A stretch of 64,000 bases of DNA from an uncultured bacterium. GTDB lineage: Bacteria > Hinthialibacterota > Hinthialibacteria > Hinthialibacterales > Hinthialibacteraceae. Below, in pieces: positions 3,619-62,994 of this stretch. The notes under the pieces are model-generated. The model saw only the letters and a program-made list of their open reading frames with translations. It did not search any database and had not been told where the DNA came from. The stretch lies in contig CAZFER010000019.1 in assembly GCA_964517495.1 (NCBI GenBank), positions 19,835 through 83,834 on the forward strand. The letters run 5' to 3'. Numbering within the stretch: position 1 is the first letter of the stretch; each line of letters starts with the position of its first letter. A program made the position numbers and the translations under genes.

Positions 3619-5286
3619 ATGAATTTAACCTTCAATAGGCGCGAGGCCATCACTCTTATGTCCAGTTTTGTAAGCATGAATGTTTTGGCCACGGTGCCTA
3701 TCGATGACATCGTGAACCGTCATGATCAGCAACTTGACGACATCCTCAAGCGGCAAAATACGAATGCTCAGAGTCAATGGTGTGGTGCTTATCCCAATTC
3801 GTGGGGCCTGTATTCATGCGGTTCAGCAGGACGAATCGTCGAATTGGGTACGGCCTTGTACCTTCATCCCCAATCCCGTCATCACCACAATAAGAAAATA
3901 CTACAACGTATCAAATTGGCTGTTGATTTTTTGAAATGTGGTCAGTCATCCGATGGATTGATCGACCTGCTTACCACCAATTTTGATTCCCCACCTGACA
4001 CGGGATTTGTGGTTCATCATGTGGCCACCGCGGCGAAACTGGCCCGCATTCACAAGGCTAAATCCATCGAATCCATGATCAAGCCGTTTCTGATCGATGC
4101 CGGCCATGGGATGGCGGAGGGTGGAATCCACACACCCAACCATCGTTGGGTGGTCAGCGCGGCACTGGCTCAAATTCATGATCTTTATCCTGATCCCCGC
4201 TTCATCAAACGAATTGATCAATGGTTGGCGGAAGGAATCGACATCGACGCAGAGGGCCAATTTATCGAACGCAGCACCACGGTGTACAACGCTGTCAGCG
4301 ATAATTCCCTGGTCACCCTCGCTCATAAATTGAATCGCCCTGAACTATTGGAAACCGTTCGCCAAAACCTGAATGCCATGCTCTATTTACTACATCCAGG
4401 ATATGAAGTGGTGACCGAAATTTCCCGCCGGCAGGATATCAACACACAGGGAACCATGCGCCGTTACTGGTTCGCCTTGCGGTACATGGCCCATAAAGAT
4501 CAGAATGGACAATACGCGACTATCGTGCATCACCTCGAACCGGAACACATCAGCCTTCCCCTTTTGATGGAATATCAGGAATTGCAAAAACCTTTACCAC
4601 CGAAAAAAGCAATCCCAACGGATTATGTTAAATCGTATCCTCTCAGTGAAATTACCCGGATTCGGCACGGTAAAACCAGCGCCGTCATTATGCACAAACA
4701 CAACAACCGTTGGTTTTCGCTGCGCCGGGGTAAAGCCGTTATAAACGCCGTTCGCTTTGCTTCCGCCTTTTTTGGCAAAGGCCAATTCAATCCCGATCAC
4801 TTTGAAGAAAAAGAGGGTGTCTACTATTTTGAACAACATCTCCAAGGCCCTTACTATCAGCCGATTGATAACCCATCATTACTGCCTGTGACACGTGAAC
4901 ATTGGGGAGCCTACCGTGGCCAGCGTGAAAAGAGCAACATCTGCAGGATGACATACAAAACCACTATTCGTGAAATATCCAATGGATTCGAATTACACAT
5001 CCATGCTTATGGCACTGAGAATGTCCCCCTTGCCATCGAAATTAACCTCCGGGATGGAGGCAAAATCGAAGGTGTCAAACCAGCGCCCAATGTCTCGGAT
5101 GCGTTTCTTTTGCCAGAAGGTTATGTGATATATAAAATGGGAGAAGATATGATTCGCTTTGGCCCAGGACTCGCTAATCATGCCTATACCCAGGTCCGAG
5201 GGGCTGAAGCCAAATTAACCGGTCCCAGCATTTATTTAACCGCCTATACACCTTTTGAACACACGCTAACCTTTGAATTTGTTTAA
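3619..5286 (+). CDS. secreted hypothetical protein, possibly alpha/alpha-toroid polysaccharide-lyase-like
   Basis: 555 aa ORF with an ATG start. The N-terminus has an RREAITL Tat-like signal. No confident family assignment. Confidence 0.55.
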   Translation: MNLTFNRREAITLMSSFVSMNVLATVPIDDIVNRHDQQLDDILKRQNTNAQSQWCGAYPNSWGLYSCGSAGRIVELGTALYLHPQSRHHHNKKILQRIKLAVDFLKCGQSSDGLIDLLTTNFDSPPDTGFVVHHVATAAKLARIHKAKSIESMIKPFLIDAGHGMAEGGIHTPNHRWVVSAALAQIHDLYPDPRFIKRIDQWLAEGIDIDAEGQFIERSTTVYNAVSDNSLVTLAHKLNRPELLETVRQNLNAMLYLLHPGYEVVTEISRRQDINTQGTMRRYWFALRYMAHKDQNGQYATIVHHLEPEHISLPLLMEYQELQKPLPPKKAIPTDYVKSYPLSEITRIRHGKTSAVIMHKHNNRWFSLRRGKAVINAVRFASAFFGKGQFNPDHFEEKEGVYYFEQHLQGPYYQPIDNPSLLPVTREHWGAYRGQREKSNICRMTYKTTIREISNGFELHIHAYGTENVPLAIEINLRDGGKIEGVKPAPNVSDAFLLPEGYVIYKMGEDMIRFGPGLANHAYTQVRGAEAKLTGPSIYLTAYTPFEHTLTFEFV

Positions 5287-5420
5287 TCCATCACCACATA
5301 ACCGCCATCCATTGATTTCTGAAATTAAGAAGAAATCATTCTTTTTCCAGTTTTCCAATTATTATGCTAATATAATATGGTATATAATGATTAAGACATT
5401 CAAATCGAGTAAGTGGTCAG

Positions 5421-5540
5421 CCATTTGAAGCACTATTCCCTTCCCAAGACTTGGAGGGCCAGGGGAGGGTTGATAATTAATGCGGTGAGAAAATCCTTTA
5501 ACCCACTCCTGACCTCCCCCATTTCATTGGGGGAGAAATA
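5421..5540 (+). repeat. composite GC-rich palindromic intergenic repeat, family A copy 1
   Basis: gccatttgaagcaCtattccCttcccaagaCttggagggccaggggagggttga followed by cctcccccatttcattgggggag. A near-identical copy lies at 47552-47660. The second half recurs at 8466-8500 and inverted, mosaic copies lie at 62511-62640. Confidence 0.7.
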
Positions 5541-5624
5541 TAGGGGAACCCATTATCAGTTTTCACTCCCTTTCCACTTCATACAGCTGACTCGTTACTA
5601 AAATGATTCGAGGGGGCAATAAAC

Positions 5625-8453
5625 GTGTTTAAATTCTTCAAAAAACGATTTGTTCTTATATCACTTATCGTCCTTATTCTGTTGGTAGCCGTAATTGGCC
5701 TGGTGTTCATCAACCTGGGTGGCATCATTCGAAGTAACAAAGATGCCATTCTAGCCAAAGTTGAAGAATCCATCGGACGAAAAGTAACCATCGAAAAGAT
5801 GGACGTGTCAGTCTGGAGTGGGGTGGGAGTGCAATTAACGAATATCACAGTTGCCGAGGATCCCGATTTCTCTGAAGACCATTTCATTACCGCTAACGAA
5901 GCCGATCTCTATTTCAAACTCTTGCCCCTGCTTGGCAAGCGAATCGAAATCTCCCACTTAACCGTCCATAAACCGTCCATACAAATCATCAAAAACAAGG
6001 ATGGCCAGTATAATTTCACCAGCCTTTTGGCATCCAATTTAAACAGCACAACAGAAACAAGTGCAACAACCTCTGAAACATCAGCTATCTCACTAACTCT
6101 TTCCAATTTTGAATTGCTTGACGGACAAATCAAAGCAATCCAGCAATCAGACAACCAAACCTTGCAACTCACCGATGTGGATATGAATGTCCGTAATTTC
6201 TCTCTCGATAAAGCCTTTCCCCTTAAGGTATCCCTGGCGTGGGATAGCGAGAATCCCAACCTAACCTTGGATGGTGATATCGGACCATTAGCCGCAGAGG
6301 ATCAGCCGATATCCATAAATACAAATATCACCTTCGACCAACTTGCATTATCAAATGTGCAATCGATCATCCCGGCTGCGGTTTCGCTTCCCAAAGACCT
6401 TGAACTGAATGGTTCGATCTCCGGAAAAACACTTGTTAAAGGCAGCCTGGATCATCTTCAAATCAATGCCGATCTTGATGCCACCGAGAGTGGAATCAAA
6501 ATGAATCCCCAATTCAATAAACCCAAATCCACTCCCTTTAAAGTGAAATTTGATTCAAGTTTGGTCGATAAAAACCTGAGTGTACAGAATGTGAATGTAA
6601 CCCTTGATACGATTAACTTAAAAGGCGAAGGCAAAATCGTTTTACAAGAAACACCCTCTTTTGACCTGGATGTCAAAACAGATGGATTGGATATTTCCAA
6701 GATAAGTACTTATGTACCACAACTTCAATCAACACTCCCCAGGGACATCTCAGTTGATGGCGCTATAACCGGAAATGCTCTAATAAAGGGAACGCTGGCA
6801 GACCTTCAAATTCAAACAAAGTTGGATGGTTCAAATGCCGTCATTGAAATGAAAGATTTACTGGCCAAAGCGAAGAATGTACCTTTTCATCTTGACCTCA
6901 ATGCCCATAAAGCAGGTAACGCGATCGATATCAAAAAAAGCGTCATCAGGCTCGACAACGCTGAAGTGCAAGCCATTGGCAGGATGTCGATGGGTAAAAC
7001 GTCCTCCTATGATTTGGATGTTAATACCAATGATATAAAACTATCAAACCTTTCGTCACATGTTTCACTTTTAGAAGAGTATAAACCAACGGGTGATGTT
7101 CATTTCAACGGCCATATTGACTACGACGGCAAAACCCCCTTGATCGAGGGAACACTCTCTCTCAAAAATGTTGAAGTCACTGTCCAAAAAATTCCCAACC
7201 CTATTTCTGATCTTAATGGAGAGATCACCTTTGAATCGAAAACCGCAATAACAGAAAACCTCGGATTAAAACTGGGCCAATCCACCATCAAAGCCGATGC
7301 ACAAACTTCATCATTATCACCAATTGCTTTATCTTATACTATATTATCCCCCCAACTTCATGCCACCGATATTTTCGCCGCCCCGGAAGCCATGAAAAAG
7401 GATATCATGCAAAATGTCGAAATTTCCGGTAACGTGGAGATGAAAGAAACGTTGAACAGCAAGGGCACAATCAAGTCACAAAATGGCATTTTCTATGGCC
7501 TTCCCTACTCTGACCTGACAGGCACATATCAATTTGAAGACCAAATTCTCACATCAAATGATTTGACCTTGCAAACCATGAAAGGAACCGTCGTTGCTGA
7601 CCTGACCTACAACATGCAAGAAACTCCCTATGCCTTTGAAATCAATGCGGAAACTCAACAGGTCGATGTGATGGAATTGGTACGCACTCGTTTTTCGTAC
7701 ATCCCGCCGCTATTGGAAGGGCGCTTAAACACAAACCTAAACCTGTCGGGCAGTGGTACTGATTGGGAGAGCATTAAACCAAGTTTAAAAGGCAAAGGCT
7801 CTGTTCAAATTTTGGAAGGATTGCTACTGGATACCAATATCGTCAATAAAGTGCTTGATGGAATGACCGGCATGCCCGGTGTTTCCAATTTTATCTCCGC
7901 CAATTTCGGGCAGGATTATCCCCAAATCTTTAATTCAAAACATACCGCGTTTGATCAACTCAAGTTTGATGCCCTCATCCAGGATGGCAAAGTCGACATT
8001 CAAAACCTTCTTATTGACGCCACTGAATGGCTGGTGGGTGGCACGGGTTATGTTGATTTCAAGCAGAATCTCTATACCGATTCCACCCTGAAACTTTCAA
8101 AAGGTTTTTCTGACTACCTGATTGGTAAAGTCAACATATTTAAATACTTGACCAATCAAGAGGGTAGCATGATCATCCCCTTCCTGCTCAAAGGTCCGCT
8201 ATCCAGCCCAACCCCGCAGCCAAAAGTCGACCTGGTGCAGTCCCTGCTGCAAAAAGCGGTCATGGGCAAAATCGGCGAGCAACTACAGGACAAGGGAGCG
8301 CCCAATATGTTGCAGGGCGCTTTGGATTTGCTCAAGCAACCAAGTCAAAAGAAGGTGGAATCCGGAACGAAAACCGAAGAAAAGGAGTCCCCTAAAAGCC
8401 CATTGGATATATTCAATACGATCAAAAAGGGTATTGATAAGAAAAATGAATAA
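5625..8453 (+). CDS. AsmA family outer-membrane biogenesis protein
   Basis: 942 aa ORF with a GTG start after a GAGGGGG ribosome-binding site. It has an N-terminal transmembrane anchor and an AsmA-like N-domain (KVTIEKMDVSVWSGVGVQLTNI). The body is a long repetitive beta-rich region and the C-terminus is Lys/Glu-rich. Confidence 0.75.
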   Translation: MFKFFKKRFVLISLIVLILLVAVIGLVFINLGGIIRSNKDAILAKVEESIGRKVTIEKMDVSVWSGVGVQLTNITVAEDPDFSEDHFITANEADLYFKLLPLLGKRIEISHLTVHKPSIQIIKNKDGQYNFTSLLASNLNSTTETSATTSETSAISLTLSNFELLDGQIKAIQQSDNQTLQLTDVDMNVRNFSLDKAFPLKVSLAWDSENPNLTLDGDIGPLAAEDQPISINTNITFDQLALSNVQSIIPAAVSLPKDLELNGSISGKTLVKGSLDHLQINADLDATESGIKMNPQFNKPKSTPFKVKFDSSLVDKNLSVQNVNVTLDTINLKGEGKIVLQETPSFDLDVKTDGLDISKISTYVPQLQSTLPRDISVDGAITGNALIKGTLADLQIQTKLDGSNAVIEMKDLLAKAKNVPFHLDLNAHKAGNAIDIKKSVIRLDNAEVQAIGRMSMGKTSSYDLDVNTNDIKLSNLSSHVSLLEEYKPTGDVHFNGHIDYDGKTPLIEGTLSLKNVEVTVQKIPNPISDLNGEITFESKTAITENLGLKLGQSTIKADAQTSSLSPIALSYTILSPQLHATDIFAAPEAMKKDIMQNVEISGNVEMKETLNSKGTIKSQNGIFYGLPYSDLTGTYQFEDQILTSNDLTLQTMKGTVVADLTYNMQETPYAFEINAETQQVDVMELVRTRFSYIPPLLEGRLNTNLNLSGSGTDWESIKPSLKGKGSVQILEGLLLDTNIVNKVLDGMTGMPGVSNFISANFGQDYPQIFNSKHTAFDQLKFDALIQDGKVDIQNLLIDATEWLVGGTGYVDFKQNLYTDSTLKLSKGFSDYLIGKVNIFKYLTNQEGSMIIPFLLKGPLSSPTPQPKVDLVQSLLQKAVMGKIGEQLQDKGAPNMLQGALDLLKQPSQKKVESGTKTEEKESPKSPLDIFNTIKKGIDKKNE

Positions 8454-8465
8454 ATTGGCAAGACA

Positions 8466-8500
8466 ATAATCGTTCTCCTAACCTCCCCCATTTCATTGGG
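8466..8500. repeat. family A repeat, half copy (hairpin cctccccc-atttcatt-gggggagg), likely a bidirectional terminator
   Basis: Sits in the gap between the + gene ending at 8453 and the - gene ending at 8570. The same hairpin occurs at 5511-5537. Confidence 0.55.
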
Positions 8501-8569
8501 GGAGGAATAGAAAAACCACTACACATGTACTACTTCATAAAGCCGATATTTTACATTAATGTTTACCCT

Positions 8570-9631
8570 TTAATGCCCCATCCAATCAGCCTTCATACCT
8601 GAGGGCTTATCGATTGGATCATCCCTTCCATGCAATGGTCCGATATACTTTTTCGCCAAAACCACATCATCAAACCAGACCTTGATCCAATGTCCCGCTG
8701 GTTTTGAGGTATAGACATAAAGCCAGACATAATTCGCCTTGAGTGCTTCCACGCTGCGCCATGCGAAGCCCTCAAACGTATTATCCGTGTTTGTACTTGG
8801 GCTCCACCAGCCACCTGTCCAACGTCCTTTGGGAAAGCCAGGCCCGATATGGTTCACCACCTGTCCATCACGGCGATGGAGTTTCCCATCGATCCAAAAT
8901 GCCATCTCTCCATTGCTGGCATCCACGGGATCATTCATCTTCACCATGATTTCCACACAGATCCACTCACCTTTTTCCACCTTGGGTTTGCTTACTCCAT
9001 GCATAAATGGCGTACCCCAATAGTTACCATCCCCATGTACATGCATTCCCTGCCAGTAGGAATAAAAATCCCATGTCCAACTTGATCCATAGGGTTCCAC
9101 ACCAATTGTGAAGCGTTTATTCCCATCCGGACGCTCCCCCGCACCGCCTTGCGGCCAGGGCGTAGAGGGATTATATCCACCAATATGAGTGCCAAAATGA
9201 TGCAACTCCCCACACTCATGAGCAAATTTCACATAAAAGCGCGCAAACAAGGTGTCAACGCCCCATCCACCTGCCTCGTTTTTGATTCGCCGGTAAAGAT
9301 GAGCACCCGAGCCTTTAGTCCGTTCAATGATAAACGATTGCCTACCCGCGCTCTTGCCAGGAACATCCGTCCCAAACGCCATGTTTTCTCTATGGCTCAC
9401 ACTCTCCCAACGGTTCCACATCTGATTAAGGCTGTTCTCTTCAAAGTTTTCGACAAACAACACATCCGGATCATTTTCGATTCCTTCATCTCCGATATAC
9501 TCAGCCGCAATCCCCGCATGCCCTTCCGGAAGTTGGGCATCGACTTCATCATTTTGTCCAGATCCTATATGGGCATACCCAATTCCATTCATGACTAAAT
9601 ACATGATAAATAACAGTTTGAATATATTCAT
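8570..9631 (-). CDS. secreted hypothetical protein
   Basis: The ORF track extends to 9661. The internal ATG at 9631 gives a clean signal peptide (MNIFKLLFIMYLVMNGIGYA). No family recognised; Trp/Gly-rich. Confidence 0.5.
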   Translation of the reverse strand: MNIFKLLFIMYLVMNGIGYAHIGSGQNDEVDAQLPEGHAGIAAEYIGDEGIENDPDVLFVENFEENSLNQMWNRWESVSHRENMAFGTDVPGKSAGRQSFIIERTKGSGAHLYRRIKNEAGGWGVDTLFARFYVKFAHECGELHHFGTHIGGYNPSTPWPQGGAGERPDGNKRFTIGVEPYGSSWTWDFYSYWQGMHVHGDGNYWGTPFMHGVSKPKVEKGEWICVEIMVKMNDPVDASNGEMAFWIDGKLHRRDGQVVNHIGPGFPKGRWTGGWWSPSTNTDNTFEGFAWRSVEALKANYVWLYVYTSKPAGHWIKVWFDDVVLAKKYIGPLHGRDDPIDKPSGMKADWMGH

Positions 9632-10933: not shown

Positions 10934-10956
10934 GTGGGTCACGCTTTTCGACCCAT
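10934..10956. repeat. family D hairpin repeat (gtgggtcacgcttttcgacccat)
   Basis: Immediately after the stop of the gene at 10050..10919. A near-identical hairpin lies at 38361-38383 after the pseudopilin gene. Confidence 0.55.
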
Positions 10957-10987
10957 CGATGCACACTAACCCTACAATTCACATAAA

Positions 10988-11053
10988 AGGGAGGGCGAGG
11001 CTCCCGCCGAGCCGTTTTCAGGTACAACGGCTCATCAGAAGATTCGCCCTCCC
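10988..11053. repeat. family B repeat (gggagggcgaggctcccgccgagccg) forming a long hairpin with tcgccctcccc
   Basis: Lies between the convergent genes ending at 10919 and 11076. The 26-mer recurs at 37441-37466 with one mismatch and partially at 43397-43420. Confidence 0.55.
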
Positions 11054-11075
11054 CATTCCACAATCCAATATGCTT

Positions 11076-23816: not shown

Positions 23817-24363
23817 GAATAAAGCCTTTACGCTTATTGAATTGTTGATTGTCGTCGCCATTATTGGAATCCTGGCCGCCATTGCGGTGCCTAACTTTAT
23901 GAACGCCCAGATTCGAGCCAAAGTAACTCGCGTCGAGGCGGACTTCAAAACGTTAGCCACCGCTTTGGAGGCCTATCATATTACCAATGGCAACTACCCC
24001 GTGGCTCACTTGCTCGATCAGCAAATAGCCTCTGGGACCGCCTTGAGCCGGTTTTCTGCTCTAACCACACCGATCGCATTCATTTCATTTTACCCTTCCG
24101 ATCCTTTTGGAAAAAAGAAGGAGGGACCCAATTTCCATACCGAGACCTACGATTACTATGACTGGACCTCAGCCAAACTCGCCAATAACTACCCCGCTTC
24201 CACGCGGGGTGCCTATTGGCGAATCGCCAGCGCTGGCCCGGATAAAATCCAACGCGTCGGTTTCAGTGTCGATTACGATCCCAGCAACGGAATCCTCAGC
24301 CTGGGCGACATCGTCCGCCTCGGCCCTCAATGGAAACCATTCGACAAGAGCCGATTACAATGA
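23809..24363 (+). CDS. prepilin-type N-terminal cleavage/methylation domain protein (pseudopilin-like, DUF1559-type N-terminus)
   Basis: 184 aa. KAFTLIELLIVVAIIGILAAIAVPNF is a class III signal. It overlaps the upstream gene by 8 nt. Confidence 0.75.
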   Translation: MNKNKAFTLIELLIVVAIIGILAAIAVPNFMNAQIRAKVTRVEADFKTLATALEAYHITNGNYPVAHLLDQQIASGTALSRFSALTTPIAFISFYPSDPFGKKKEGPNFHTETYDYYDWTSAKLANNYPASTRGAYWRIASAGPDKIQRVGFSVDYDPSNGILSLGDIVRLGPQWKPFDKSRLQ

Positions 24364-24385: not shown

Positions 24386-24892
24386 TCACCTTTTCCAATT
24401 CGTACGAAAATCTAAAAGATGTCCAAACTGAAAAGCATTGAATGATTGGATTCCAAACTGCGCACATACGTCCGGAATCCTGCGATTATGACGTTGGCTT
24501 CTGGGTTTGGAACTTTCGGTTGTGACAACCGACCGGCTTGTAGGATCAACTAAAGCGTAAGCAATTAAAAACGGATCACGACCAATTGCCTCTAGCTCTA
24601 TATCATTAAGGTCAGGGGCATATCCCTCATTTGTAACCTTTCGAACGAGATATATATCCACCTCTTCTTCGAAGCATAATGCGCTTTGTGTTGTGCTCTG
24701 TTTTGCCCATTCTGCTAGAGTATCTTTTCCCTTTTTCCCTTCCTTTATTTCTTCATAAATCTCAATAGGGATTTTAACCCTGCCCTGCTCTCCTTGATAA
24801 ATGAGCCATGTCCAATACTCGTCAACACGTCCAATTGGATAGTAGTCCCGGTTGGCATCGATTAGAACGTTTGCATCTCGAAGATAAAGCAA
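24386..24892 (-). CDS. DUF4411 family PIN-like nuclease
   Basis: 168 aa with a TTG start 10 nt after the upstream stop. LYLRDANVLIDANRDYYP N-terminus with conserved acidic residues, typical of DUF4411. Confidence 0.6.
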   Translation of the reverse strand: MLYLRDANVLIDANRDYYPIGRVDEYWTWLIYQGEQGRVKIPIEIYEEIKEGKKGKDTLAEWAKQSTTQSALCFEEEVDIYLVRKVTNEGYAPDLNDIELEAIGRDPFLIAYALVDPTSRSVVTTESSKPRSQRHNRRIPDVCAQFGIQSFNAFQFGHLLDFRTNWKR

Positions 24893-24902
24893 TAATAATC
24901 TC

Positions 24903-26111
24903 CTATATTACATGTACAGGTCGAGCAGCTTCAATGACTCCCTGAACATTTTTGGCCTTTACTCCTAGAACAATTCCAGCCTTTGTTGTGCTCAAAGCAC
25001 CACTATACATCATTCGGTCAACGAGATGAACAAGGGCTTCACCAACTTTACGTTTCTGAAGATTATAATAACTCGGTCCCACGTTTTTTTCTTGTTCACG
25101 ACGCTTGGCGCGCTCACAAGCTTTACTATCAAGAAAGTCCTGTCGGAAAGTTTTTCGTAATTTTTCATAATGGTCATAGTCAAAACGCCCTATACGATAA
25201 AGTTTATACGCTACCATGGTGCTGCTCACATTGTGTGTTCTCCCCAAAACACTGATTTGTTCTTTAGCATCTGCAATATCTGTTTGCTTATCTAATTCAA
25301 TATCCTTTAATACCACCTCCGGAAGCAGGAACTCGCTTGCCACGTCATTACAAAATTTTTCAATGCTTTTTACAGCAAATTCACCGCTGACGCCTGAAGC
25401 GCCAAGCCACAAATGAGCCAGTTCATGAATCAAAGTGAAGCACAATGCACCTTTGGAGTCGTTCGCATTGATGGCGATGAAGGGCGCAATATCGTCAGCG
25501 AGAGCAAATCCTCGAAATGCATCAACATTAATTGTCGTGTAATAGTTCCCAAGATTATCAACCAGTATTACGAAAATACCAGCCTTTTCTGCTTGTCCCC
25601 GAAGATAAGAAAAAGCGCCCTCAATTCCTGCTTTGTGGCGGTATTCTTCAAGATCGAAAGACATATGTTTACGAATTGAATGTACGACAGTTTTTACACC
25701 CTCTTTCATTTCACTAGAACCGATAAAAGTCAAAGGCTTGGCTTCATCTTCTTCAATCAACATAGCGCGCACGAGAGACTGACGCGCATAAATTTTTCTA
25801 ATGACAATATCTACAAGAACATTATCGGAATGATCGATGGTTTCCGGGAGTTTACGGTAATCCCTGCCTCTGTCTCCTATTCGTGGCCGATCACTGAGAT
25901 AGAAGGTTAGAAGGGGACGTCGATAGTGTTTCGCCATCTTGACCAACATAGATCGTGTCGGAATTTTTTTTCCTTCTTCTAAATCTTTAAGCCGCTCAAT
26001 TGGAGATACACCGCCCACCTCGTTAATATTTAGTCTTTTTACGGCCTCTTCAGGTGTAATACCTGCTGTTTCACGTGCCCATCGTAGTATGTTTGGATTC
26101 ACCTTTGGCAT
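24903..26111 (-). CDS. XRE-family HTH regulator fused to an ImmA/IrrE family metallo-endopeptidase
   Basis: 402 aa. N-terminal HTH region (ILRWARETAGITPEEAVKRLNI). HEXXH zinc-peptidase motif (FTLIHELAHLWLG) in the C-terminal domain. Confidence 0.8.
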   Translation of the reverse strand: MPKVNPNILRWARETAGITPEEAVKRLNINEVGGVSPIERLKDLEEGKKIPTRSMLVKMAKHYRRPLLTFYLSDRPRIGDRGRDYRKLPETIDHSDNVLVDIVIRKIYARQSLVRAMLIEEDEAKPLTFIGSSEMKEGVKTVVHSIRKHMSFDLEEYRHKAGIEGAFSYLRGQAEKAGIFVILVDNLGNYYTTINVDAFRGFALADDIAPFIAINANDSKGALCFTLIHELAHLWLGASGVSGEFAVKSIEKFCNDVASEFLLPEVVLKDIELDKQTDIADAKEQISVLGRTHNVSSTMVAYKLYRIGRFDYDHYEKLRKTFRQDFLDSKACERAKRREQEKNVGPSYYNLQKRKVGEALVHLVDRMMYSGALSTTKAGIVLGVKAKNVQGVIEAARPVHVI

Positions 26112-37189: not shown

Positions 37190-37440
37190 GCTTTCCTCCT
37201 GAATAACTAGATTAACTAAATTTGTTATTTGTAATTCACATTCGCTAAATAATTAAAATATCTTTCATAGTGCGCCACCCTTGCGCCCCCAATGAAATGA
37301 GGGCGCTTAGGAGGGGGTTAAAAAGATTATACTCTAAGTTTTATTATTCCATGCTTATAACCCCAACGGGGTAACATAAGATAGCCAGCGGGCAACACCC
37401 CTGGAAATGAATAAAAACCACTCTCACCTTTCACCACCCA

Positions 37441-37466
37441 GGGAGGGCGTGGCTCCCGCCGAGCCG
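37441..37466. repeat. family B repeat copy (gggagggcgtggctcccgccgagccg)
   Basis: One mismatch from the copy at 10988-11013. Lies in the divergent intergenic region upstream of the pseudopilin gene. Confidence 0.55.
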
Positions 37467-37570
37467 AAGTGTCCGATCAAGGTACATTTAAATATTAAAC
37501 TTCCAATGCAGGATAATGTGAATATACCTCTTTCGTTTGGTTTTCGTATAACCGACTCCGCGGGTGCCAA

Positions 37571-37608
37571 GGGCTTGACGACGAAGGAGTCAGCCCTTGA
37601 GTCCTACC
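37571..37608. repeat. family C hairpin repeat (gggtgccaagggcttgac...gtcagcccttg)
   Basis: A ggtgccaaggg-N-cccttg hairpin is also found at 43414-43450 and 55119-55154. Confidence 0.5.
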
Positions 37609-37757
37609 CTCCTATCCCTTACCTTCCACAAACCAACATGATAACTATTGTTACTATCCAATTGATGGTAGCATGGTTGATGATACATAATTTCTTGATC
37701 ATCATGTATTATGTGATTTCAGGATAAAATGAATTTATTTTCTTTGGGGAGGAAAAA

Positions 37758-38351
37758 ATGATGAAAGACCGTACGACCAAACAAACTGAATCCATTGCAG
37801 GTTTCACACTCATTGAATTACTCATCGTCGTCGCCATTATTGGGATCCTGGCCGCCATCGCGGTGCCCAATTTTATTAACGCCCAAATTCGTGCCAAACT
37901 GGCCAGAGTACAAGCCGATATTGACGCAATCGAAACCGCCCTCGGTCAATACAGGCTGGAAAACAACAAATACCCCCCTTCACACAATGGATCATCCTAC
38001 ATCGATCCACACATAAAACGCTTCGTCTATTTAACCACGCCCGTGGCATTTATGTCAACAGTCCCCATGGACGTATTTGCCAAGGAATTAGCCCCTGACA
38101 CCGGAGGATACAATAGCATCGGTGGTAAATATGTGGGAGATCCCTATCGTTACCTGGAATCCCAATTTCACCCAACCATACACCAATTCAGCAAAACCGA
38201 TGAACACAAACGGTATGTGTATCTATTATCCGGCCGTGGCCCCGATCACCTGATGAATTGGCAAATGACCCCTCGTTTGCCAGACGCGCTCGATTACTCA
38301 CCCACCAACGGCCTCAACAGCCTGGGTGACATAAACATATTCGGCCCCTAA
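37758..38351 (+). CDS. prepilin-type N-terminal cleavage/methylation domain protein (pseudopilin-like)
   Basis: 197 aa. FTLIELLIVVAIIGILAAIAVPNFINAQIRAK is nearly identical to the N-terminus of 23809..24363. Confidence 0.75.
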   Translation: MMKDRTTKQTESIAGFTLIELLIVVAIIGILAAIAVPNFINAQIRAKLARVQADIDAIETALGQYRLENNKYPPSHNGSSYIDPHIKRFVYLTTPVAFMSTVPMDVFAKELAPDTGGYNSIGGKYVGDPYRYLESQFHPTIHQFSKTDEHKRYVYLLSGRGPDHLMNWQMTPRLPDALDYSPTNGLNSLGDINIFGP

Positions 38352-38360
38352 AATCGTGGA

Positions 38361-38383
38361 ATGGGTCACGTTTTTCGACCCAT
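38361..38383. repeat. family D hairpin (atgggtcacgtttttcgacccat), likely a terminator
   Basis: Lies 10 nt after the pseudopilin stop. It is followed by a family E-like hairpin at 38461-38487. Confidence 0.5.
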
Positions 38384-38494
38384 CCAGGAACACCCAATGG
38401 GTTAAACAACGCAACCCATTTTACTTACCGGGTTGAAACATATCTCATTCCCCTAAACGTTGTAGGGGCAAACCCATGTGTGCGCCCTTCCAAT

Positions 38495-39979
38495 TCAAGC
38501 AATCAATTTATCAACCACATTCCCCGCCACATCAGTCAAACGAAAATCACGGCCTTGGAAACGATAGGTCAGCTTTTCATGATTCATGCCAAACAGCTGT
38601 AAAATAGTGGCATGCAAATCATTGATATGAATGGGATCTTGCAGAATGTTCCAGCCAATTTCATCGGTCTCTCCAATAACCTGCCCACCTTTGATTCCTC
38701 CACCGGCCATCCACACACTGAAAGCAAATGGATGGTGATCACGCCCCGTATTGGCTTCACGCCCCACACGGTTTTCTCCCAATGGCGTACGCCCGAATTC
38801 AGACCCCCATACCACCAGTGTTTCATCCAAGAGGCCACGCTGTTTTAAATCCTTCAGCAAGGCAGCCACCGGCTGGTCGGCCATCATGCAGTTGAATTTC
38901 AATCCCTGGTCAATATTGGCATGATGATCCCAAGTGGCGTGATAAATATTGATAAATCGCACTCCCCGCTCAACCATGCGGCGAGCCAAGAGGCAATTGG
39001 TGGAAAAACTATCAAACTCGCCTTTCCCTCCCCCTTGATAATTCTTAATCGGCTCTTCTCTCCCTACACCATACATTTCAAGTATTTCCGGCGATTCATC
39101 GGAAAAATCAATCAATTCAGGCGCCGAGGCCTGCATCCGATACGCCAGTTCATACGACGCAATCCGGCTGTTAATCTCAGGATCGCGCACCTGCTCGTAA
39201 TGGTGTTGATTCAAATCCCGCAACGTATCCAAACTCATGCGCTGCACATCTTTCGACATCCCGCCAGGATTGCTCAAATTCAACACCGGATCGCCATGAC
39301 TGCGGAAGAGCACACCCTCATAGGTCGATGGAAGAAAACCACTCGTCCAATTCTGCGTCCCCGCACTGGTTCCACGTCCCGTGGTTAACACCACATAACC
39401 GGGCAAGTTCTGCGATTCACTCCCCAAGCCATAATTCAACCATGATCCCAAACTGGGCCGCCCAAAAAGCGGAAAACCAGTGTTCATCATCAACTGCCCG
39501 GGATGGTGATTGAATTGATCCGTGTGCATCGAACGAACCAAGGCAATATCATCCGCACATGAGCCAATATGGGGCAACAAATCTGAAAACTCCGTTCCAC
39601 TTTCACCATGCTTCTTGAATTTTCGCGGCGTCCCCATCACCGTAGCCGAATCTTTTTGAATAAATGCAAAACGGACATTTTCCGTTAACGACTCCGGCAG
39701 TTTTTCCCCATGCAACTCATTCAATTTGGGCTTTGGATCAAACAAATCCAACTGGCTGGGCGCGCCAGCCATGAAAATAAATATGCAATTTTTGGCTTTG
39801 GGGGCAAAATGCGGTTTCTTGGGGGCTAATGGATTGATGAGCGAATCCGATTGCACATCAGCCGCCAACGCCCCATCCTGTTGCAATAAAGACAACAACG
39901 CCAATGAGCCAATCCCGCTGGCTGTCGTGGCTAAAAAATCGCGTCGTGATTGTTGGATAAAGTCTTTAATCGGGTCCAT
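38495..39979 (-). CDS. DUF1501 domain protein (sulfatase-like fold), Tat signal
   Basis: 494 aa. RRDFLATTASGIGSLALLS Tat motif. Classic PVC-group partner of DUF1553 proteins. Confidence 0.85.
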   Translation of the reverse strand: MDPIKDFIQQSRRDFLATTASGIGSLALLSLLQQDGALAADVQSDSLINPLAPKKPHFAPKAKNCIFIFMAGAPSQLDLFDPKPKLNELHGEKLPESLTENVRFAFIQKDSATVMGTPRKFKKHGESGTEFSDLLPHIGSCADDIALVRSMHTDQFNHHPGQLMMNTGFPLFGRPSLGSWLNYGLGSESQNLPGYVVLTTGRGTSAGTQNWTSGFLPSTYEGVLFRSHGDPVLNLSNPGGMSKDVQRMSLDTLRDLNQHHYEQVRDPEINSRIASYELAYRMQASAPELIDFSDESPEILEMYGVGREEPIKNYQGGGKGEFDSFSTNCLLARRMVERGVRFINIYHATWDHHANIDQGLKFNCMMADQPVAALLKDLKQRGLLDETLVVWGSEFGRTPLGENRVGREANTGRDHHPFAFSVWMAGGGIKGGQVIGETDEIGWNILQDPIHINDLHATILQLFGMNHEKLTYRFQGRDFRLTDVAGNVVDKLIA

Positions 39980-39983
39980 AAAT

Positions 39984-42900
39984 TCACTCCCTCGTCATAA
40001 ATTCGTCTAGATTGATTAAGGTTCTCCCCAGCGCAATCCAGGCAGCGGTCTGTTTCGCATCCGCCTGTTCGGGAACATTTCCACCGCTGATAGAGCGGGC
40101 TTCCTCTGGATTTTTTTCAAAATGCTGCGTCAACTCTGCATAAAGTTGTATCAAACGTGCTCTCTCAATGGTACTCGGCTCACGGCCCAAGCACAGTCGA
40201 AACGCATAATCGATCCGTCGTTCCAAACCACCCTCAACGTTTTCCACAATCCGTTTACCCAACCACTGTGCACAATCAAAGAAAACCGGATCATTCAATA
40301 ATGCAAGCGATTGAAGCGGCGTGTTGGATCGTTCCCGCCGGGTACAGGTAACATTGGCATCCGGCGAGTCAAACGTCATCAACATCGGGTACGGAACCGT
40401 TCGCTGGAAGAAAATATAAAGTCCACGCCGATACCGGTCCGGTGCAGGGCTTTCAGACCAACGCACACTATTGGCATATCCCAAATCAGCGACCCCCTCA
40501 GGCAAGGGCGGCCGAATACTGGGACCACCCAGCTTATCGTATAACAACCCACTAACTGCCAGGCTATTATCACGAATTATTTCAGCCGGCAATCGAAAAC
40601 GGCTCTGACGCGCCAAGTATAAATTTTGTGGATCAATCTCCTGCAGTTTGGAATTGGATTCCGACGATTGCCGGTAAGTGGCCGACATCACAATCAATTT
40701 AATCAGCGCTTTCCGGCTCCAATCCAATTCAATGTATCGATTAGCCAACCAATCCAGCAACAAGGGATGCGAAGGCGGTTTACTTCGTGTCCCAAAATCA
40801 TTGGGCGATTCAACAATCCCACGACCAAACAAATGCTGCCACACCCGATTGGCCGCCACCCGCGCCGTTAATGGATGCTCAGGATCAAGTATCCAGCTCG
40901 CCAGATCCAACCGGTCAACCTCATCACCTTCTGGCTCAAGCGGTGGAAGAAATTCAGGCGTATGCGGTTTAACAACCTTACCCTTGCGCAAAAAATCTCC
41001 ACGAATATGAATATGCGATGTTGGCGGCTCAGGATTCTTCGCCATCGCCATGATATAGGAATCCGGCTTGGCAGGTTGACGTTTAGCGTGTTCATCCACA
41101 CTACGCTTGTACAATGCTAATTCGGGATCAATATGAGAATAAAACGCCGCAAGTTCCTTCTGCTCTTTATCCGTGCGTTTATCTCTCTTTGTTTCTATGA
41201 TGTTTGCAATATGAAAAGGTACCCCATCCGACTTAACCGGCCGTTCTGCATCTGTGGCTAATAACCGAAACCGTTCCAGCGTATGCTCCTTGCCATATTG
41301 CTGTGAAAGTTTGATGGTTAACGTCACATCTCCGTATAAGTCCGAAAATGGTTTCGTTTCAAAAACAGCCACATGGGGACGCTCCGTCTCACCACTGATA
41401 GCCCAGCCAGTTTTTAAATCGCCATCGATAGCATCCTTGATCGGATATTTATCCTGCGCATAATCCACCGTTGGATTATGAAATTCAACCTTCTGCGACG
41501 CAATATCAAACCCATCAAACCTTAACCATGCGCTAAATTCCGACAACACAAAATTACCATGCCCAGCCCGCCCCGGCCCCGAATCTTCATCCACAGGAAG
41601 CACTTCCAGCCGCAGCGCAGTCAAATCACTCAAATTCGTTTTCACCGATAAGATATAAACATCCGCATCAGGTTTTGATCCCTCGGCCTGAATGGAACCA
41701 TCCTCATGCAACTTTAACGCGACACCATTCTCTGTTTGTAATTTAAATGGCTTCAGCACCTGCCATTTCACATTTGAGGGTTTCCACTTGCGTTCCCATT
41801 CACGCTGCCGTTCAGGTAATTCAACTTCTTTGTAGGCTTCCAGCGCTTCCTCGAATTTATCGTGAACCTGATCAAACCGTTCCTTGGCAGCCAGATATCG
41901 CTTCTCTTCACCCGCCAGTGGAACCTTGACGTCTTTTTCCTCCGCTTTATTAAAAAAAGCAAAAAGCCCGTAATATTCCTCCTGGGTAATCGGATCATAT
42001 TTATGGGTATGACATTCCGCACAGCCAACCGTTATACCCATCCAAACCGTACCGGTTGTGTTAACCCGATCCTTGACCGCCTTGATTCGAAACTCCTCCT
42101 GATCCACCCCACCTTCCTTGTTGGTAAGTGTATTTCGATGAAACCCAGTCGCCAGAAGATCCGAATCATCCGCCTCAGGAAGCAAGTCACCTGCCAACTG
42201 CTTGATGGTAAACTCATCATAAGGCATATCCTCATTTATGGCGTTTATCACCCAATCACGATAACGCCAGGCATAGGGCCTTGGAGTGTCCTTTTCATAA
42301 CCATCACTGTCAGCATAACGGGCCAAATCCAACCAATGCCGCCCCCAGCGCTCACCAAAATGAGGCGAAGCCAACAACCGGTCAACCAAATTCTCATATG
42401 CATCCTCGCTGTTATCATTGACAAACACTTCAATCTCATCCGGCGTAGGTGGCAACCCCAACAGATCCAAATGCAAGCGCCGTATCAATGTCTGCTTATC
42501 CGCAGGCTTGGATGGCTTCAATCCTTTCTCTTCCAACTTCGCCAACACAAAAGCATCTATCTCATTCCGAATCCAACTGGCCTGTTTCACCTCAGGAACC
42601 TCTGGATCCTTACGCGGCGAAAACGCCCAATGAACACCACCACTCGTTTTCGTCTCTTTATCCTCAGGTGCCTCTACATCCTCAGTTTCTTCTTCAGTGG
42701 TTTCCTTATTTGTACTCTCCTCTTTAACTTTGGGCTCAGACTCACTCCATTTTGCCCCCTGATCAATCCAGGCTCGCAACAATCCAATCTGCTCATCAGA
42801 CAACGGCTCCCCATCCATCGGCATCGGCGCAATATTCTCCGCCACCCCAGACACCACTTGGATCAACAGACTGTCTGCACTTTTCCCTGGAATTATGGCA

Positions 42901-43160: not shown

Positions 43161-43396
43161 ACTGCTCCCCATAGTAACATTATAAAATTTATCTATTTTG
43201 TCCATATTAAAGCATAATTTTATCGTCCAGTACATGGATAATTCAATAAATTGAAATACATGTGAGTTCATAAAAAACTCTTCTTTTTCATAAATCCAGG
43301 TTACTTCAACAAATACCAAACGTACTAATAGGCGTAGGAAAACCGGTTCTCTTCACCCCACACTGCATAGAGATATGGAGAAACGAATATTCCTCC

Positions 43397-43450
43397 AGGG
43401 AGGGCGACGCAGCCGCCGGGTGCCAAGGGTCAGCCTTGTTGGCTACCCTT
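43397..43450. repeat. fused family B/C repeat (gggagggcgacgcagccgccgggtgccaagggtcagccttgttggctacccttg)
   Basis: Lies in the divergent region between 43160 and 43531. Shares its cores with elements at 10988, 37441, 37571 and 55119. Confidence 0.5.
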
Positions 43451-47502: not shown

Positions 47503-47551
47503 AATAACCTCCCAAAATTTATTCATCCCTTCCAACCTAAGTATAGGCTAA

Positions 47552-47660
47552 GCCATTTGAAGCACCATTCCCCTCCCAAGCCTGGGAGGGGCCAGGGGAG
47601 GGTTGAGAAGTAAATGGTGAGCCAATTCCTTTAGCCCCTCCTAACCTCCCCCCTTTCATT
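47552..47660 (+). repeat. family A composite repeat, copy 2
   Basis: gccatttgaagcaccattcccctcccaagcctgggaggggccaggggagggttga...cctaacctcccccctttcatt, near-identical to 5421-5540. Palindromic core cccctcccaag/cctgggagggg. Confidence 0.7.
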
Positions 47661-50435: not shown

Positions 50436-50490
50436 AATAAATTTTCTATTCTATGGCGATTTCTGGTTTAATGGCTTTAAGGAACTATCA

Positions 50491-62510: not shown

Positions 62511-62640
62511 TACACTACTCCTTCAACCCTCCCCTAACCCCTCACAGACTTGGGCTGATCTTTTCCCAATAGTATATGAATCAATCAAGATTGTGTGTTA
62601 ATCCTTCAACCCTCCCCTAACCCCTCCCAGGCTTGGGAGG
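62511..62640 (-). repeat. family A repeat, two tandem inverted/mosaic copies
   Basis: tccttcaaccctcccctaacccctcacagacttgggctga ... tccttcaaccctcccctaacccctcccaggcttgggaggggaatgg. This is the reverse complement of the family A core. The motif ctgatcttttcccaatag is also shared with 47655-47680. Confidence 0.6.
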
Positions 62641-62994
62641 GGAATGGTTTCTATACCTGTTTAGCGATTTTTAAATCTCCTGTGATCCCTCTTCGTTATC
62701 GGCCAACCCACTTCTTCCCCAAGCCTGTTGGAGATACAGATGGGGTTGATCATCGGCCCCACAACTTCTGGGTAATGCGCAACACTCTTATTGGCTTATA
62801 TTATCATATATTATGGTCTTTTTGATGGTCCCATTAAAAACTAAAATGGGGTGACATTTTGTTATACACTGATGTTAATAGGTTGAGCATTTGACCCCCT
62901 AAGTCCTCCCGTCAACGGGGGGACTTTGTGGGATTTACAAAGATTATTTTGCTGACATAAAGTTTATACGGATTTTATCAGGTTAAGGAAAAAT

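What the first reader, a model, noticed from the sequence alone, without database searches (positions are those of the whole stretch)
5421..5540. Family A composite palindromic repeat present in at least four intergenic loci
Near-identical ~110 bp elements lie at 5421-5540 and 47552-47660. They contain a perfect palindrome (cccctcccaag/cctgggagggg), a G-rich box (ggccaggggagggttga) and a second hairpin (cctccccc-atttcatt-gggggagg). Partial or inverted mosaics lie at 8466-8500 and 62511-62640. Copies sit downstream of genes or in divergent promoters. This is REP/MITE-like behaviour, or possibly a shared regulatory hairpin or terminator.
Basis: seen in the sequence. Interest (0 to 1): 0.5.

Follow-up and report, generated by a model that had tools for sequence, protein, structure and literature searches.

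The report
MITE carrying two triplex-type hairpin modules
The repeat is a small non-coding transposon (a MITE with inverted ends and 8-bp target duplications). Its interior holds two opposed copies of a G/C-rich hairpin-plus-mirror-repeat motif of the kind known in E. coli as BoxC, so it is a new family of known kinds of element and not a regulator or terminator.

Summary
Pieces of one repeat family lie in five intergenic spacers of the window, far above chance.

The full unit is about 190 bp (window 5409-5598). It has 22-bp terminal inverted repeats, GTAAnnGGTCAGCnnTTTGAAG and CTTCAnnnnGCTGACnnnTTAC. Related assemblies hold 11 more full-length copies; 9 of the 12 have an 8-bp target-site duplication matching at 7-8 of 8 positions. 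This is a MITE.

The "palindrome + G-rich box" (X) and the "second hairpin" (Y, read on the other strand) follow one plan: C-stem, loop, G-stem, TTA/CCA, then a mirror image of the G-stem. That is the intrastrand purine-motif triplex architecture of E. coli BoxC/PIT/TM_ECO (Holder et al. 2015). It also fits a G-quadruplex pattern.

X with its C-stem occurs in at least 20 assemblies from at least 9 named phyla, with genome-specific loops.

Window copies are mostly old or truncated. One insertion is shared with a relative at 90% amino-acid identity. One half-copy sits at a synteny breakpoint.

I found no terminator signature, no Rfam match, and no transposase or RAYT in the window. The parent IS was not found; IS66-like is a guess.

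Verdict: new member of known kinds, moderate interest.

The parts
5409..5598 (+). Full-length MITE copy (190 bp). Left TIR 5409-5430 is GTAAGTGGTCAGCCATTTGAAG. Right TIR 5577-5598 is CTTCATACAGCTGACTCGTTAC. The flanking 8-mers, caaatcga (5401-5408) and taaaatga (5599-5606), match at 5 of 8, which I read as a decayed target duplication.
   Evidence: Alignment with copies from assembly CAYVAZ01. TIR/TSD scan. The same insertion is present at the orthologous site in a relative at 90% amino-acid identity.
5437..5473 (+). Decayed X module inside the full copy: TTCCCTTCCC-aagact-TGGA-GGG-cca-GGGGAGGG-TTGA. The C-stem is mutated and the first G block has a 1-nt deletion.
   Evidence: The relative's copy still reads CACCATTCCCCTC at this position.
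5502..5536 (-). Y module. Read on the minus strand it is TCTCCCCC-aatgaaat-GGGGGAGG-tca-GGAGTGGG. The hairpin has 1 mismatch, and 7 of 8 positions of the third block are mirror-compatible.
   Evidence: Triplex-pattern scan.
8475..8554 (+). Right half of a MITE copy. It holds the Y hairpin (8482-8505, perfect) with a truncated third block, then a degenerate right TIR CTTCATAAAGCCGATATTTTAC ending at 8554. Its left edge coincides with a synteny breakpoint against the relative.
   Evidence: D2; 66% identity to the right half of the full copy. The relative L073 shares ...acaataatcg and then has unrelated sequence and a different downstream gene.
37281..37322 (+). Inverted Y-type unit: GCGCCCCC-aatgaaat-GAGGGCGC-tta-GGAGGGGG-TTAA. 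The stem changed on both arms while the third block stayed in the old form.
   Evidence: (I2, I4).
47541..47660 (+). Left part of a MITE copy. It has a degenerate left TIR (47541-47562), an intact X module (47570-47602, plus TTGA to 47606), a spacer, and the Y tail with its C-stem (47630-47660). It then breaks off into unrelated sequence starting CTGATCTTTACCCAATAGT.
62606..62665 (-). Intact X module on the minus strand (62610-62642, TTGA at 62606-62609). It is preceded, in minus-strand reading, by a degenerate left-TIR-like stretch, GCTAAACAGGTATAGAAACCATT.
   Evidence: (I1: 43 nt, 95% complementary to 47564-47606).
62523..62554 (-). Second X unit, 83 bp from the first. It lacks most of its C-stem, which is replaced by CTGATCTTTTCCCAATAGT. 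An X unit is present at the orthologous place in the relative, where a different part has decayed.
   Evidence: (I3).
62862..62930 (+). Segment of about 68 bp that is present here and absent at the same place in the relative. It carries a TIR-like GTTAATAGGTTGAGCATTTGA and a C-rich tail plus hairpin (GTCCTCCCG/CGGGGGGAC). It may be a short derivative of the family.
   Evidence: Exact ends and target duplication were not resolved.

Best explanation

**Shown**
- 22-bp terminal inverted repeats beginning GTAA.
- Exact 8-bp target-site duplications.
- Many dispersed copies in three related lineages.
- Intergenic location.
- Differences in presence between close relatives.

**Inferred**
- It is moved in trans by a DDE-type transposase of an insertion sequence with the same ends.
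- GTAA-start 22-bp ends plus 8-bp duplications fit the IS66 family best. The partner was not found.

**Interior**
The interior is an inverted doublet of two hairpin modules, X on the top strand and Y on the bottom strand. Each has the plan C-stem, loop, G-stem, 3-nt loop, then a mirror image of the G-stem. This is the architecture of purine-motif intrastrand triplex elements (E. coli BoxC / PIT / TM_ECO).

The module type is far more widespread than this MITE. It occurs in at least 9 named phyla, alone or in doublets, with genome-specific loops. The MITE therefore probably carries or captured a pre-existing structural module.

**State and effect of the window copies**
- The window copies are mostly old or broken: one complete but decayed copy, two halves and several solo modules.
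- They are genomic debris, not working parts of the neighbouring genes.
- Their most likely present-day effect (inferred) is as non-B-DNA and recombination substrates that favour rearrangements. One half-copy sits at a synteny breakpoint.
For: **Ends and target duplications**
- The alignment of copies shows the ends GTAATAGGTCAGCCGTTTGAAG ... CTTCAnACCGCTGACCTATTAC.
- There are 12 full-length copies of 174-199 bp. The flanking 8-mers are identical in 5 copies, match at 7 of 8 in 4 copies, and match at 4-5 of 8 in 3 copies.
- Searches list the duplicated 8-mers with their neighbouring bases; I did not score 9-bp matches separately.

**Copy number**
- All three contigs of the close relative that reach these sites break inside X or Y.

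**Age and polymorphism**
- The 5.4-kb copy is shared with the relative at 90% amino-acid identity.
- The 8.5-kb half-copy and the 62.9-kb segment are absent in that relative.

**Mirror rule**
- X is CCCCTCCC/GGGAGGGG/GGGGAGGG. Y is CCTCCCCC/GGGGGAGG/GGAGGGGG. The single T/A/A moves together in all three blocks.
- Of 35 units not selected by my search pattern, 25 fit the mirrored better than the direct register, 8 the reverse, and 2 tie. Several of the 8 exceptions are 9-nt BoxC-type stems that my 8-nt window mis-registered.
- Shuffled windows gave 0-1 such units against 3 observed.

**Link to the known class**
- Holder et al. 2015 (PMC4666352) define TM_ECO and describe inverted doublets of two subtypes.
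- I verified an E. coli doublet in the trmL-lldD spacer.

**IS66 features**
- IR of 20-30 bp starting GTAAGCG, and 8-bp DR: PMC11946415.
Against: - No autonomous partner with these ends was found in the window, in 70 related loci, or in the metagenome and viral scans.
- No transposase domain was found in any large window ORF.
- The IS66 guess rests on GTAA, IR length and 8-bp duplications only. The GCG that follows GTAA in IS66 ends is absent.
- Only one window copy has both ends, and its duplication matches at only 5 of 8. The clean evidence for transposition therefore comes from other genomes.
- Triplex formation is inferred from the sequence rule and from published work on a different sequence. 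X also fits a G-quadruplex pattern, and an ordinary hairpin is always possible.
- X units occur without these TIRs in other phyla. The MITE therefore does not explain how the module itself spreads.
Confidence: 0.8

Rival explanations
1. REP/REPIN-type element. On this reading the X-Y inverted doublet is a REP doublet moved as single-stranded DNA by a RAYT (IS200-like tyrosine transposase), and the outer inverted repeats are incidental.
For: - The interior is an inverted doublet of imperfect palindromes separated by a variable spacer.
- In Dehalococcoidia the X unit occurs as a solitary unit of about 40 nt, among other small hairpin repeats.
- Both doublet orientations occur in other phyla and in E. 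coli.
- The mosaics resemble BIMEs.
Against: - Exact 8-bp target duplications and conserved 22-bp terminal repeats at a fixed distance from X and Y are the marks of DDE transposition. HUH/Y1 transposition leaves neither (established knowledge of IS200/IS605 and RAYT).
- There is no GTAG or CGTC tag at the unit ends (read from the sequence). PMC3733652, whose abstract describes GTAG/CGTC tagging, appeared.
- No Y1 transposase domain was found in window ORFs.
- No gene family recurs near X across assemblies.
Confidence: 0.08
2. Cis-regulatory hairpin, transcription terminator or small RNA that is shared by several genes.
For: - All copies are intergenic.
- The top-strand RNA fold of the full copy is more stable than its shuffles (-66.7 kcal/mol, z = -3.5).
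- The 8.5-kb piece lies between convergent genes.
Against: - No terminator-like site (stem followed by a T-run) exists at any of the three loci scanned.
- Three of five loci are divergent promoter regions.
- Orientation relative to the neighbouring genes is not constant.
- Copies are truncated at different points.
- No Rfam hit at gathering or at a relaxed threshold.
- The fold stability is what inverted terminal repeats produce anyway. As DNA the z-score is -1.3, and as bottom-strand RNA it is -1.9.
- Published tests of BoxC/PIT elements found no promoter or terminator activity (PMC4666352 citing Hoyne and Maher).
Confidence: 0.05
3. The cross-phylum recurrence of X reflects convergence on a very small sequence space and not common descent or transfer. 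The space is small because the blocks are 8-mers of G with one A, plus the structural rule.
For: - The stems are low-complexity.
- Loops differ by genome (AAGCCT, AAGATT, TAGCA, TTGAAA...).
- Different A positions (X, Y and BoxC types) all satisfy the same rule.
- Only 2 hits were found in 2.9 million viral contigs, and none in plasmids or phages for the whole MITE.
- My search pattern itself fixed 19 bases, so the apparent identity is partly due to how the hits were selected.
Against: - By my own uniform-composition arithmetic, about 4 chance matches are expected in 596 Gb.
- The second loop TTA/CTA, the following TTGA and the preceding (A)TT recur across phyla.
Confidence: 0.25

Closest known systems
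Bacterial MITEs (non-autonomous derivatives of insertion sequences), possibly of IS66-family type
   Same: - Length under 200 bp and no coding capacity.
- Terminal inverted repeats, fixed-length target-site duplication, and many dispersed intergenic copies.
- Ends start with GTAA, are about 22 bp long, and give 8-bp duplications, as cited for IS66 (PMC11946415).
   Different: - No partner IS was identified.
- The ends read GTAA(T/G/C)nGGTCAGC, not GTAAGCG.
- The interior is not an obvious pair of IS sub-termini. It is an inverted doublet of triplex-type modules that also exist outside any such element.
E. coli BoxC / PIT element / TM_ECO intrastrand triplex motif (Holder et al. 2015, PMC4666352; Hoyne and Maher)
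   Same: - Plan of C-stem, loop, G-stem, 3-nt loop (often TTA), then a second G block compatible with G*G-C and A*A-T or T*A-T triads.
- Strictly intergenic, with no strand bias.
- Stems conserved while loops vary.
- Inverted doublets that combine two subtypes.
- Association with rearranged loci.
   Different: - Stems are 8 nt with a single A (GGGAGGGG or GGGGGAGG), not GGGNGAGGG. The TM_ECO pattern has no match in the window.
- The first loop of Y is 8 nt.
- Here the doublet has its tails pointing inward and is bounded by TIRs and target duplications. Holder et al. report no link of TM_ECO to mobile elements.
- Triplex formation of this sequence is untested.
REPINs / BIMEs (REP doublets and mosaics)
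   Same: - An inverted pair of short G/C-rich imperfect palindromes with a variable spacer.
- Mosaic and partial copies in intergenic DNA.
   Different: - Has terminal inverted repeats and 8-bp duplications.
- Has no GTAG/CGTC tag.
- No RAYT was found.
Recurrent G-quadruplex-type repeats with an adjacent C-rich block in Methanomicrobiaceae (PMC8044849)
   Same: - Interspersed repeats made of two mirrored G blocks, a variable central loop and a complementary C block, for example GGGGGGTGGGG-GCA-GGGGAGGGGG-CTCG-CCCCCTCCCC.
- X likewise fits the G3+N1-7 quadruplex pattern.
   Different: - Archaeal, with longer G runs and the blocks in the opposite order.
- The passages I read contain no mention of MITEs or transposition; whether those repeats have TIRs or target duplications was not checked.

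Membership tests
MITE | Terminal inverted repeats at both ends | tested here: met
   22-bp TIRs are present in 12 full-length copies, including window 5409-5430 and 5577-5598.
MITE | Target-site duplication of fixed length | tested here: met
   The flanking 8-mers are identical in 5 of 12 copies and match at 7 of 8 in 4 of 12. The window copy matches at only 5 of 8.
MITE | Small, non-coding, multi-copy and dispersed | tested here: met
   Copies are 174-199 bp. More than 34 X units occur in two related assemblies, from a truncated scan. All window pieces are intergenic. The genome-wide count in the source organism could not be made.
MITE | Filled versus empty sites between related genomes | tested here: inconclusive
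   The 8.5-kb half-copy and the 62.9-kb segment are absent in a relative at 90% amino-acid identity. The first coincides with a rearrangement, and the ends of the second are unclear. No clean empty site with a single 8-mer was obtained.
MITE | Cognate autonomous IS with the same ends | tested here: inconclusive
   None was found in the window, in the 70 loci, or in the viral and metagenome scans. Whole genomes of the hosts could not be scanned.
IS66-family derivative | IR of 20-30 bp starting GTAAGCG | tested here: inconclusive
   Length (22 bp) and GTAA are met. Positions 5-7 are variable and are not GCG. The criterion comes from PMC11946415.
IS66-family derivative | 8-bp direct repeats | tested here: met
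IS66-family derivative | An IS66-type transposase in the same genome that recognises these ends | not testable with these tools
No transposase is present in the window.
BoxC / TM_ECO | Sequence pattern CCCTCNCCC N3-6 GGGNGAGGG N3 GGGNGAGGG | tested here: not met
   There are 0 matches in the window. The pattern does match other repeats in CAYVAZ01 and in Chloroflexota loci, and E. coli.
Intrastrand purine-motif triplex element (general class, ITxF class II) | C-stem, complementary G-stem and a third block giving G*G-C / A*A-T / T*A-T triads; stems of at least 8 nt with at most 1 mismatch; short loops | tested here: met
   47570-47602 and 62610-62642 give 8 of 8 triads with a perfect hairpin and loops of 6 and 3 nt. 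5502-5536 gives 7 of 8, with a first loop of 8 nt, above the ITxF limit of 6. Shuffles give 0-1.
Intrastrand purine-motif triplex element (general class, ITxF class II) | Actual triplex formation (CD, NMR, footprint) | not testable with these tools
   Only the sequence rule and its co-variation across variants could be tested.
REP/REPIN-RAYT | GTAG or CGTC tag at one end of the palindrome; no target duplication; associated RAYT gene | tested here: not met
   No tag is visible in X or Y. 8-bp duplications are present. No Y1 transposase domain is present in the window.
Intrinsic terminator | G/C-rich stem-loop followed by a T-run | tested here: not met
   There are 0 terminator-like sites at 5250-5700, 8400-8620 and 47500-48100.
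Any Rfam RNA family | Covariance-model match | tested here: not met
   No hit at gathering threshold in the window or overlapping X in 20 loci. Only chance-level hits appear at E up to 10.

The most novel reading that the evidence does not exclude
BoxC-type intrastrand-triplex modules have been described as having no known vehicle or link to mobile elements. The novel reading is that they are dispersed, at least in some lineages, as cargo or cis-acting structure of TIR/TSD-bounded MITEs. On this reading the conserved three-block mirror rule across at least 9 phyla reflects selection on a non-B DNA structure that the transposition machinery or the replication fork uses. This would give the long-unexplained BoxC/PIT/TM repeats a dispersal mechanism and a testable function.
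Probability: 0.2. Interest if true: 0.6.

Novelty: new member of a known kind. Interest (0 to 1): 0.35.

Why it matters
- **For annotation.** These stretches should be masked as a MITE family and not read as promoters, terminators or small ORFs. They also explain contig breaks in assemblies of this lineage.
- **For repeat biology.** The family puts two opposed BoxC-like triplex-type modules inside an element with clear transposition scars. The main paper on such motifs reported no association with mobility.
- **For experiments.** The same module, obeying the same three-way mirror rule, occurs in many phyla beyond the Proteobacteria and Cyanobacteria highlighted by that paper. That gives a tractable system for asking what the structure does: oligonucleotide biophysics, and transposition assays with mirror-breaking mutants.

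Tried and rejected
- **Rfam.** Gathering threshold on the whole window and on 20 loci, and a relaxed threshold on the element, gave nothing relevant.
- **Literature search by sequence strings.** Nothing relevant.
- **Shared gene near X.** Clustering 1,694 ORFs from all loci found no gene family recurring near X across assemblies, so no shared transposase or RAYT.
- **Pfam on about 45 window ORFs.** No transposase, integrase or Y1 domain. The genes are ordinary and of PVC (Planctomycetes-Verrucomicrobia-Chlamydiae) type.
- **Parent IS.**
  - The fuzzy TIR search in all loci found only MITE-spaced pairs.
  - The single metagenome scan with the TIR pattern returned 14 chance or coding matches and no MITE, so that scan was wasted.
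  - The viral scan with the TIR gave 0 hits, and with X gave 2.
  - BLAST of the MITE against plasmids and phages gave no match.
- **Source genome.** Exact look-ups of window proteins in the contig index failed. The cluster tables only say it is an NCBI contig of 83.8 kb.
- **Orthologous empty sites.** The only other AsmA-like homologue is 28% identical and not syntenic.
- **Integron attC, CRISPR and IS200/IS605 ends.** I considered these from memory and rejected them on anatomy: no R'/R'' boxes, no regular spacing, and TIR plus TSD are present.
- **Tandem duplication at 62.5 kb.** I could not show that the two X units arose this way. Only 39 nt align.

Full report
**1. Observation**

- 5409-5528 and 47541-47661 are 82% identical over 124 aligned columns.
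- The hairpin-2 segment recurs at 8475-8509.
- The palindrome plus G-box recurs twice, inverted, at 62523-62554 and 62606-62648.
- A further inverted hairpin-2 variant lies at 37281-37322.

Motif searches against dinucleotide shuffles give 5 matches against 0.00 expected, 2 against 0.00, and 9 against 1.8. All pieces are intergenic in a window that is 11.4% intergenic.

Details need correcting:
- The palindrome is a 9-bp stem with a 4-nt loop.
- The 5.4-kb copy of it is decayed.
- The 47.5-kb copy lacks the 3' arm of the second hairpin.

**2. What it is: a MITE**

I scanned one genome per species (GTDB) with the G-box, GAGGGGNNAGGGGAGGGTTGA.
- 26 units came from one uncultured assembly, CAZEZQ01, and 8 from another, CAYVAZ01.
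- One window gene has a 64%-identical homologue in CAZEZQ01, so these are distant relatives of the window organism.

The full unit is 174-199 bp and is bounded by 22-bp terminal inverted repeats:
- left end GTAAT(A/T)GGTCAGCCGTTTGAAG
- right end CTTCAnACCGCTGACCTATTAC

Twelve full-length copies were found.
- The 8 bases on either side are identical in five of them: GAAGAAAC, CAATAAAA, GTCCATTT, AAAGAATC, AATTTTAA.
- They match at 7 of 8 in four more.
- Searches list the duplicated 8-mers with their neighbouring bases; I did not score 9-bp matches separately.

The window's complete copy is 5409-5598. Its flanks match at only 5 of 8, which fits its age (see section 4). The other window pieces are a left part (47541-47660), a right half (8475-8554) and solo modules.

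Inverted ends, a fixed 8-bp duplication, small size, no ORF and many dispersed copies together define a MITE.

**3. The interior**

Read 5' to 3', module X is TTCCCCTCCC, a loop, GGGAGGGG, TTA or CCA, GGGGAGGG, then TTGA.

Module Y read on the other strand is CCTCCCCC, a loop, GGGGGAGG, TTA, GGAGGGGG, then TTAA.

So Y is the same kind of unit as X in inverted orientation. In both, the third block is the mirror image of the second. The T in the C-stem, the A in the G-stem and the A in the third block move together: positions 5/4/5 in X and 3/6/3 in Y.

This is the rule for a purine-motif intrastrand triple helix (G*G-C and A*A-T triads). A literature search led to Holder et al. 2015 (PMC4666352).
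- They describe exactly this architecture as the E. coli BoxC / PIT / TM_ECO element, CCCTCNCCC N3-6 GGGNGAGGG N3 GGGNGAGGG.
- They found 3,610 copies in 262 proteobacterial genomes, and many G/C-rich motifs in cyanobacteria.
- The elements are strictly intergenic, with conserved stems and variable loops.
- In five E. coli K-12 loci they form inverted doublets of two subtypes.
- They are associated with rearranged loci.
- The authors explicitly found no link to transposons or transposases.

I confirmed the E. coli element. It occurs in 5,409 of 5,426 genomes, with a median of 18 places per genome. I also confirmed a doublet in the trmL-lldD spacer.

A scan for the architecture finds three units in the window (47570-47602, 62610-62642, 5502-5536), against 0-1 in shuffles.

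I then looked at 35 units in the fetched loci that my search pattern did not select.
- 25 fit the mirrored register better than the direct one, and 8 the reverse. Several of those 8 are 9-nt BoxC-type stems that my 8-nt window mis-registered.
- Distinct variants all obey the rule: GGGGGAGG/GGTGGGGG, GGAGAAGG/GGATGAGG, GGGGAGGG/GGGTGGGG.

X also fits the G3+ quadruplex pattern. Y, with G-tracts of 5-2-2-5, fits it poorly. That favours the mirror rule as the conserved constraint.

The window units do not match the TM_ECO pattern itself. They share its architecture but are not members of that sequence family.

**4. Distribution and history**

X with a matching C-stem occurs in at least 20 assemblies. 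These belong to Planctomycetota, Chloroflexota, Nitrospirota, Armatimonadota, Calditrichota, Spirochaetota, Bacteroidota, Desulfobacterota-type lineages and Myxococcota.
- Loops are genome-specific.
- Arrangements include solitary units, tails-in doublets and tails-out doublets.
- The GTAAT...ATTAC ends were seen only in the window lineage, CAYVAZ01 and CAZEZQ01.

The module is therefore much wider than this MITE, and how the module itself spreads remains open. No gene family recurs next to it. It is rare in viral contigs.

Contigs from a relative with 90% amino-acid identity (Logan SRR28370467) show the following.
- The 5.4-kb copy is at the same site there, so it predates the split. Its X stem is still intact there.
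- The 8.5-kb half-copy is absent there. The sequence and the downstream gene differ from exactly its left edge onward, so it marks a synteny breakpoint.
- A segment of about 68 bp at 62862-62930, with a TIR-like end, is present only in the window.
- The X unit at 62523-62554 is orthologous but has decayed differently in the two lineages.
- All three contigs that reach these sites break inside X or Y. This indicates many copies in that genome.

**5. Mechanism**

*Shown:* the scars of cut-and-paste or replicative DDE-type transposition.

*Inferred:* mobilisation in trans by an IS with the same ends. GTAA-start ends of about 22 bp and 8-bp duplications match what is cited for IS66 (PMC11946415). 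However, the GCG of GTAAGCG is missing and no partner was found. I put the IS66 assignment at about 0.3.

The role of X and Y is unknown. They may be a captured structural module, or a cis-acting structure of the element.

The window copies look like decaying remnants. Their plausible present effect is as non-B-DNA and homologous-recombination substrates. This fits the breakpoint at 8475 and the instability that Holder et al. report.

**6. Rivals**

- **RAYT/REPIN.** The doublet looks like one, but target duplications and TIRs argue against it, and there is no GTAG tag and no RAYT.
- **Terminator or regulatory RNA.** No T-runs follow the hairpins. Copies sit in divergent promoter regions and in both orientations. 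There is no Rfam hit. The RNA fold z-score of -3.5 is what inverted ends give anyway.
- **Convergence versus transfer.** This remains undecided for the cross-phylum spread of the module.

**7. Verdict**

This is a real repeat, now resolved as a new MITE family whose interior is an inverted pair of BoxC-like triplex-type modules. Both kinds of element are known. The combination, with clear transposition scars, is not something I could find described. Interest is moderate.

Noticed in passing
window 10935-11064, 37440-37466, 38362-38393, 43397-43423: A second intergenic repeat family. AGGGAGGGCGAGGCTCCCGCCGAGCCG has 3 copies and TGGGTCACGCTTTTCGACCCATC has 2. At 10988-11064 the first motif pairs with a downstream TCGCCCTCCCC to form a long hairpin. 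The same GGGAGGGCGAGGCTCCCGCCGAGCC motif lies next to a MITE fragment in CAZEZQ01 locus L044. The 37440 copy lies inside a 106-aa ORF with no Pfam hit (37407-37727), which may be spurious.
   Followed up: no
window 47661-47679 and 62555-62573; 37350-37388 and 47688-47727: Two more two-copy modules. CTGATCTTTWCCCAATAGT directly abuts a triplex hairpin truncated at nearly the same internal position in both places. That pattern could mean insertion into, or recombination at, the hairpin. CCATGCTTnTAACCCCAACnGGGTnACATAAGATAGCCAG follows a Y-type unit in both places. Neither module occurs in the 92 fetched loci.
   Followed up: partly
loci L020, L038, L043, L046, L049, L064 (X loops); L006, L013, L047, L050 (Y loops); L052, L053, L061: In many CAZEZQ01 copies a GC-rich insert of 17-19 nt (GCGTGCGCGCCGTGGCG) sits inside the loop of the X or Y hairpin. 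Bythopirellula and Phycisphaeraceae units carry a different hairpin insert (GGTCGCCTCGGCGACTCGCC-like) at the same place. The hairpin loops may be preferred sites for a still smaller inserted sequence.
   Followed up: no
loci L008 5106-5138, L037 7050-7082, L011 6226-6258, L041 3-35, L057 3704-3736: The exact E. coli TM_ECO pattern also occurs in Dehalococcoidia and Chloroflexota assemblies and in CAYVAZ01. In CAYVAZ01 it is part of another repeat (…CGTTCGCnGnATCTATCGCCCTCGCCCACTGGGAGAGGGACGGGGTGAGGGT). These hosts lie outside the Proteobacteria in which Holder et al. counted it.
   Followed up: partly
loci L073 (start), L074 (end), L076 (start): All three short Logan contigs from the close relative that reach these sites end inside an X or Y unit. 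This fits assembly collapse at a high-copy repeat.
   Followed up: yes
window 23827-23922 and 37803-37898: Two prepilin-type genes (N-terminal methylation motif) share an 85%-identical 96-nt 5' segment (D1).
   Followed up: no
window about 60000: GC skew is negative in every 2-kb bin from 1 to 60 kb. It turns to about zero or positive from 60 to 64 kb, so the cumulative minimum is near 60 kb. This may be only a change of gene orientation.
   Followed up: no
window 24386-26111; 48915-54968; 55321-59888: Gene content seen while annotating: a DUF4411 plus Peptidase_M78 (ImmA/IrrE-like) pair; a cluster of radical-SAM, polyprenyl synthetase, prenyltransferase and squalene-hopene cyclase genes; and sucrose synthase next to a fused sucrose-phosphate synthase/phosphatase. 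DUF1501 and PSCyt1/PSCyt2/PSD1 genes at 38495-43319 point to a PVC-type (Planctomycetes-like) organism.
   Followed up: no
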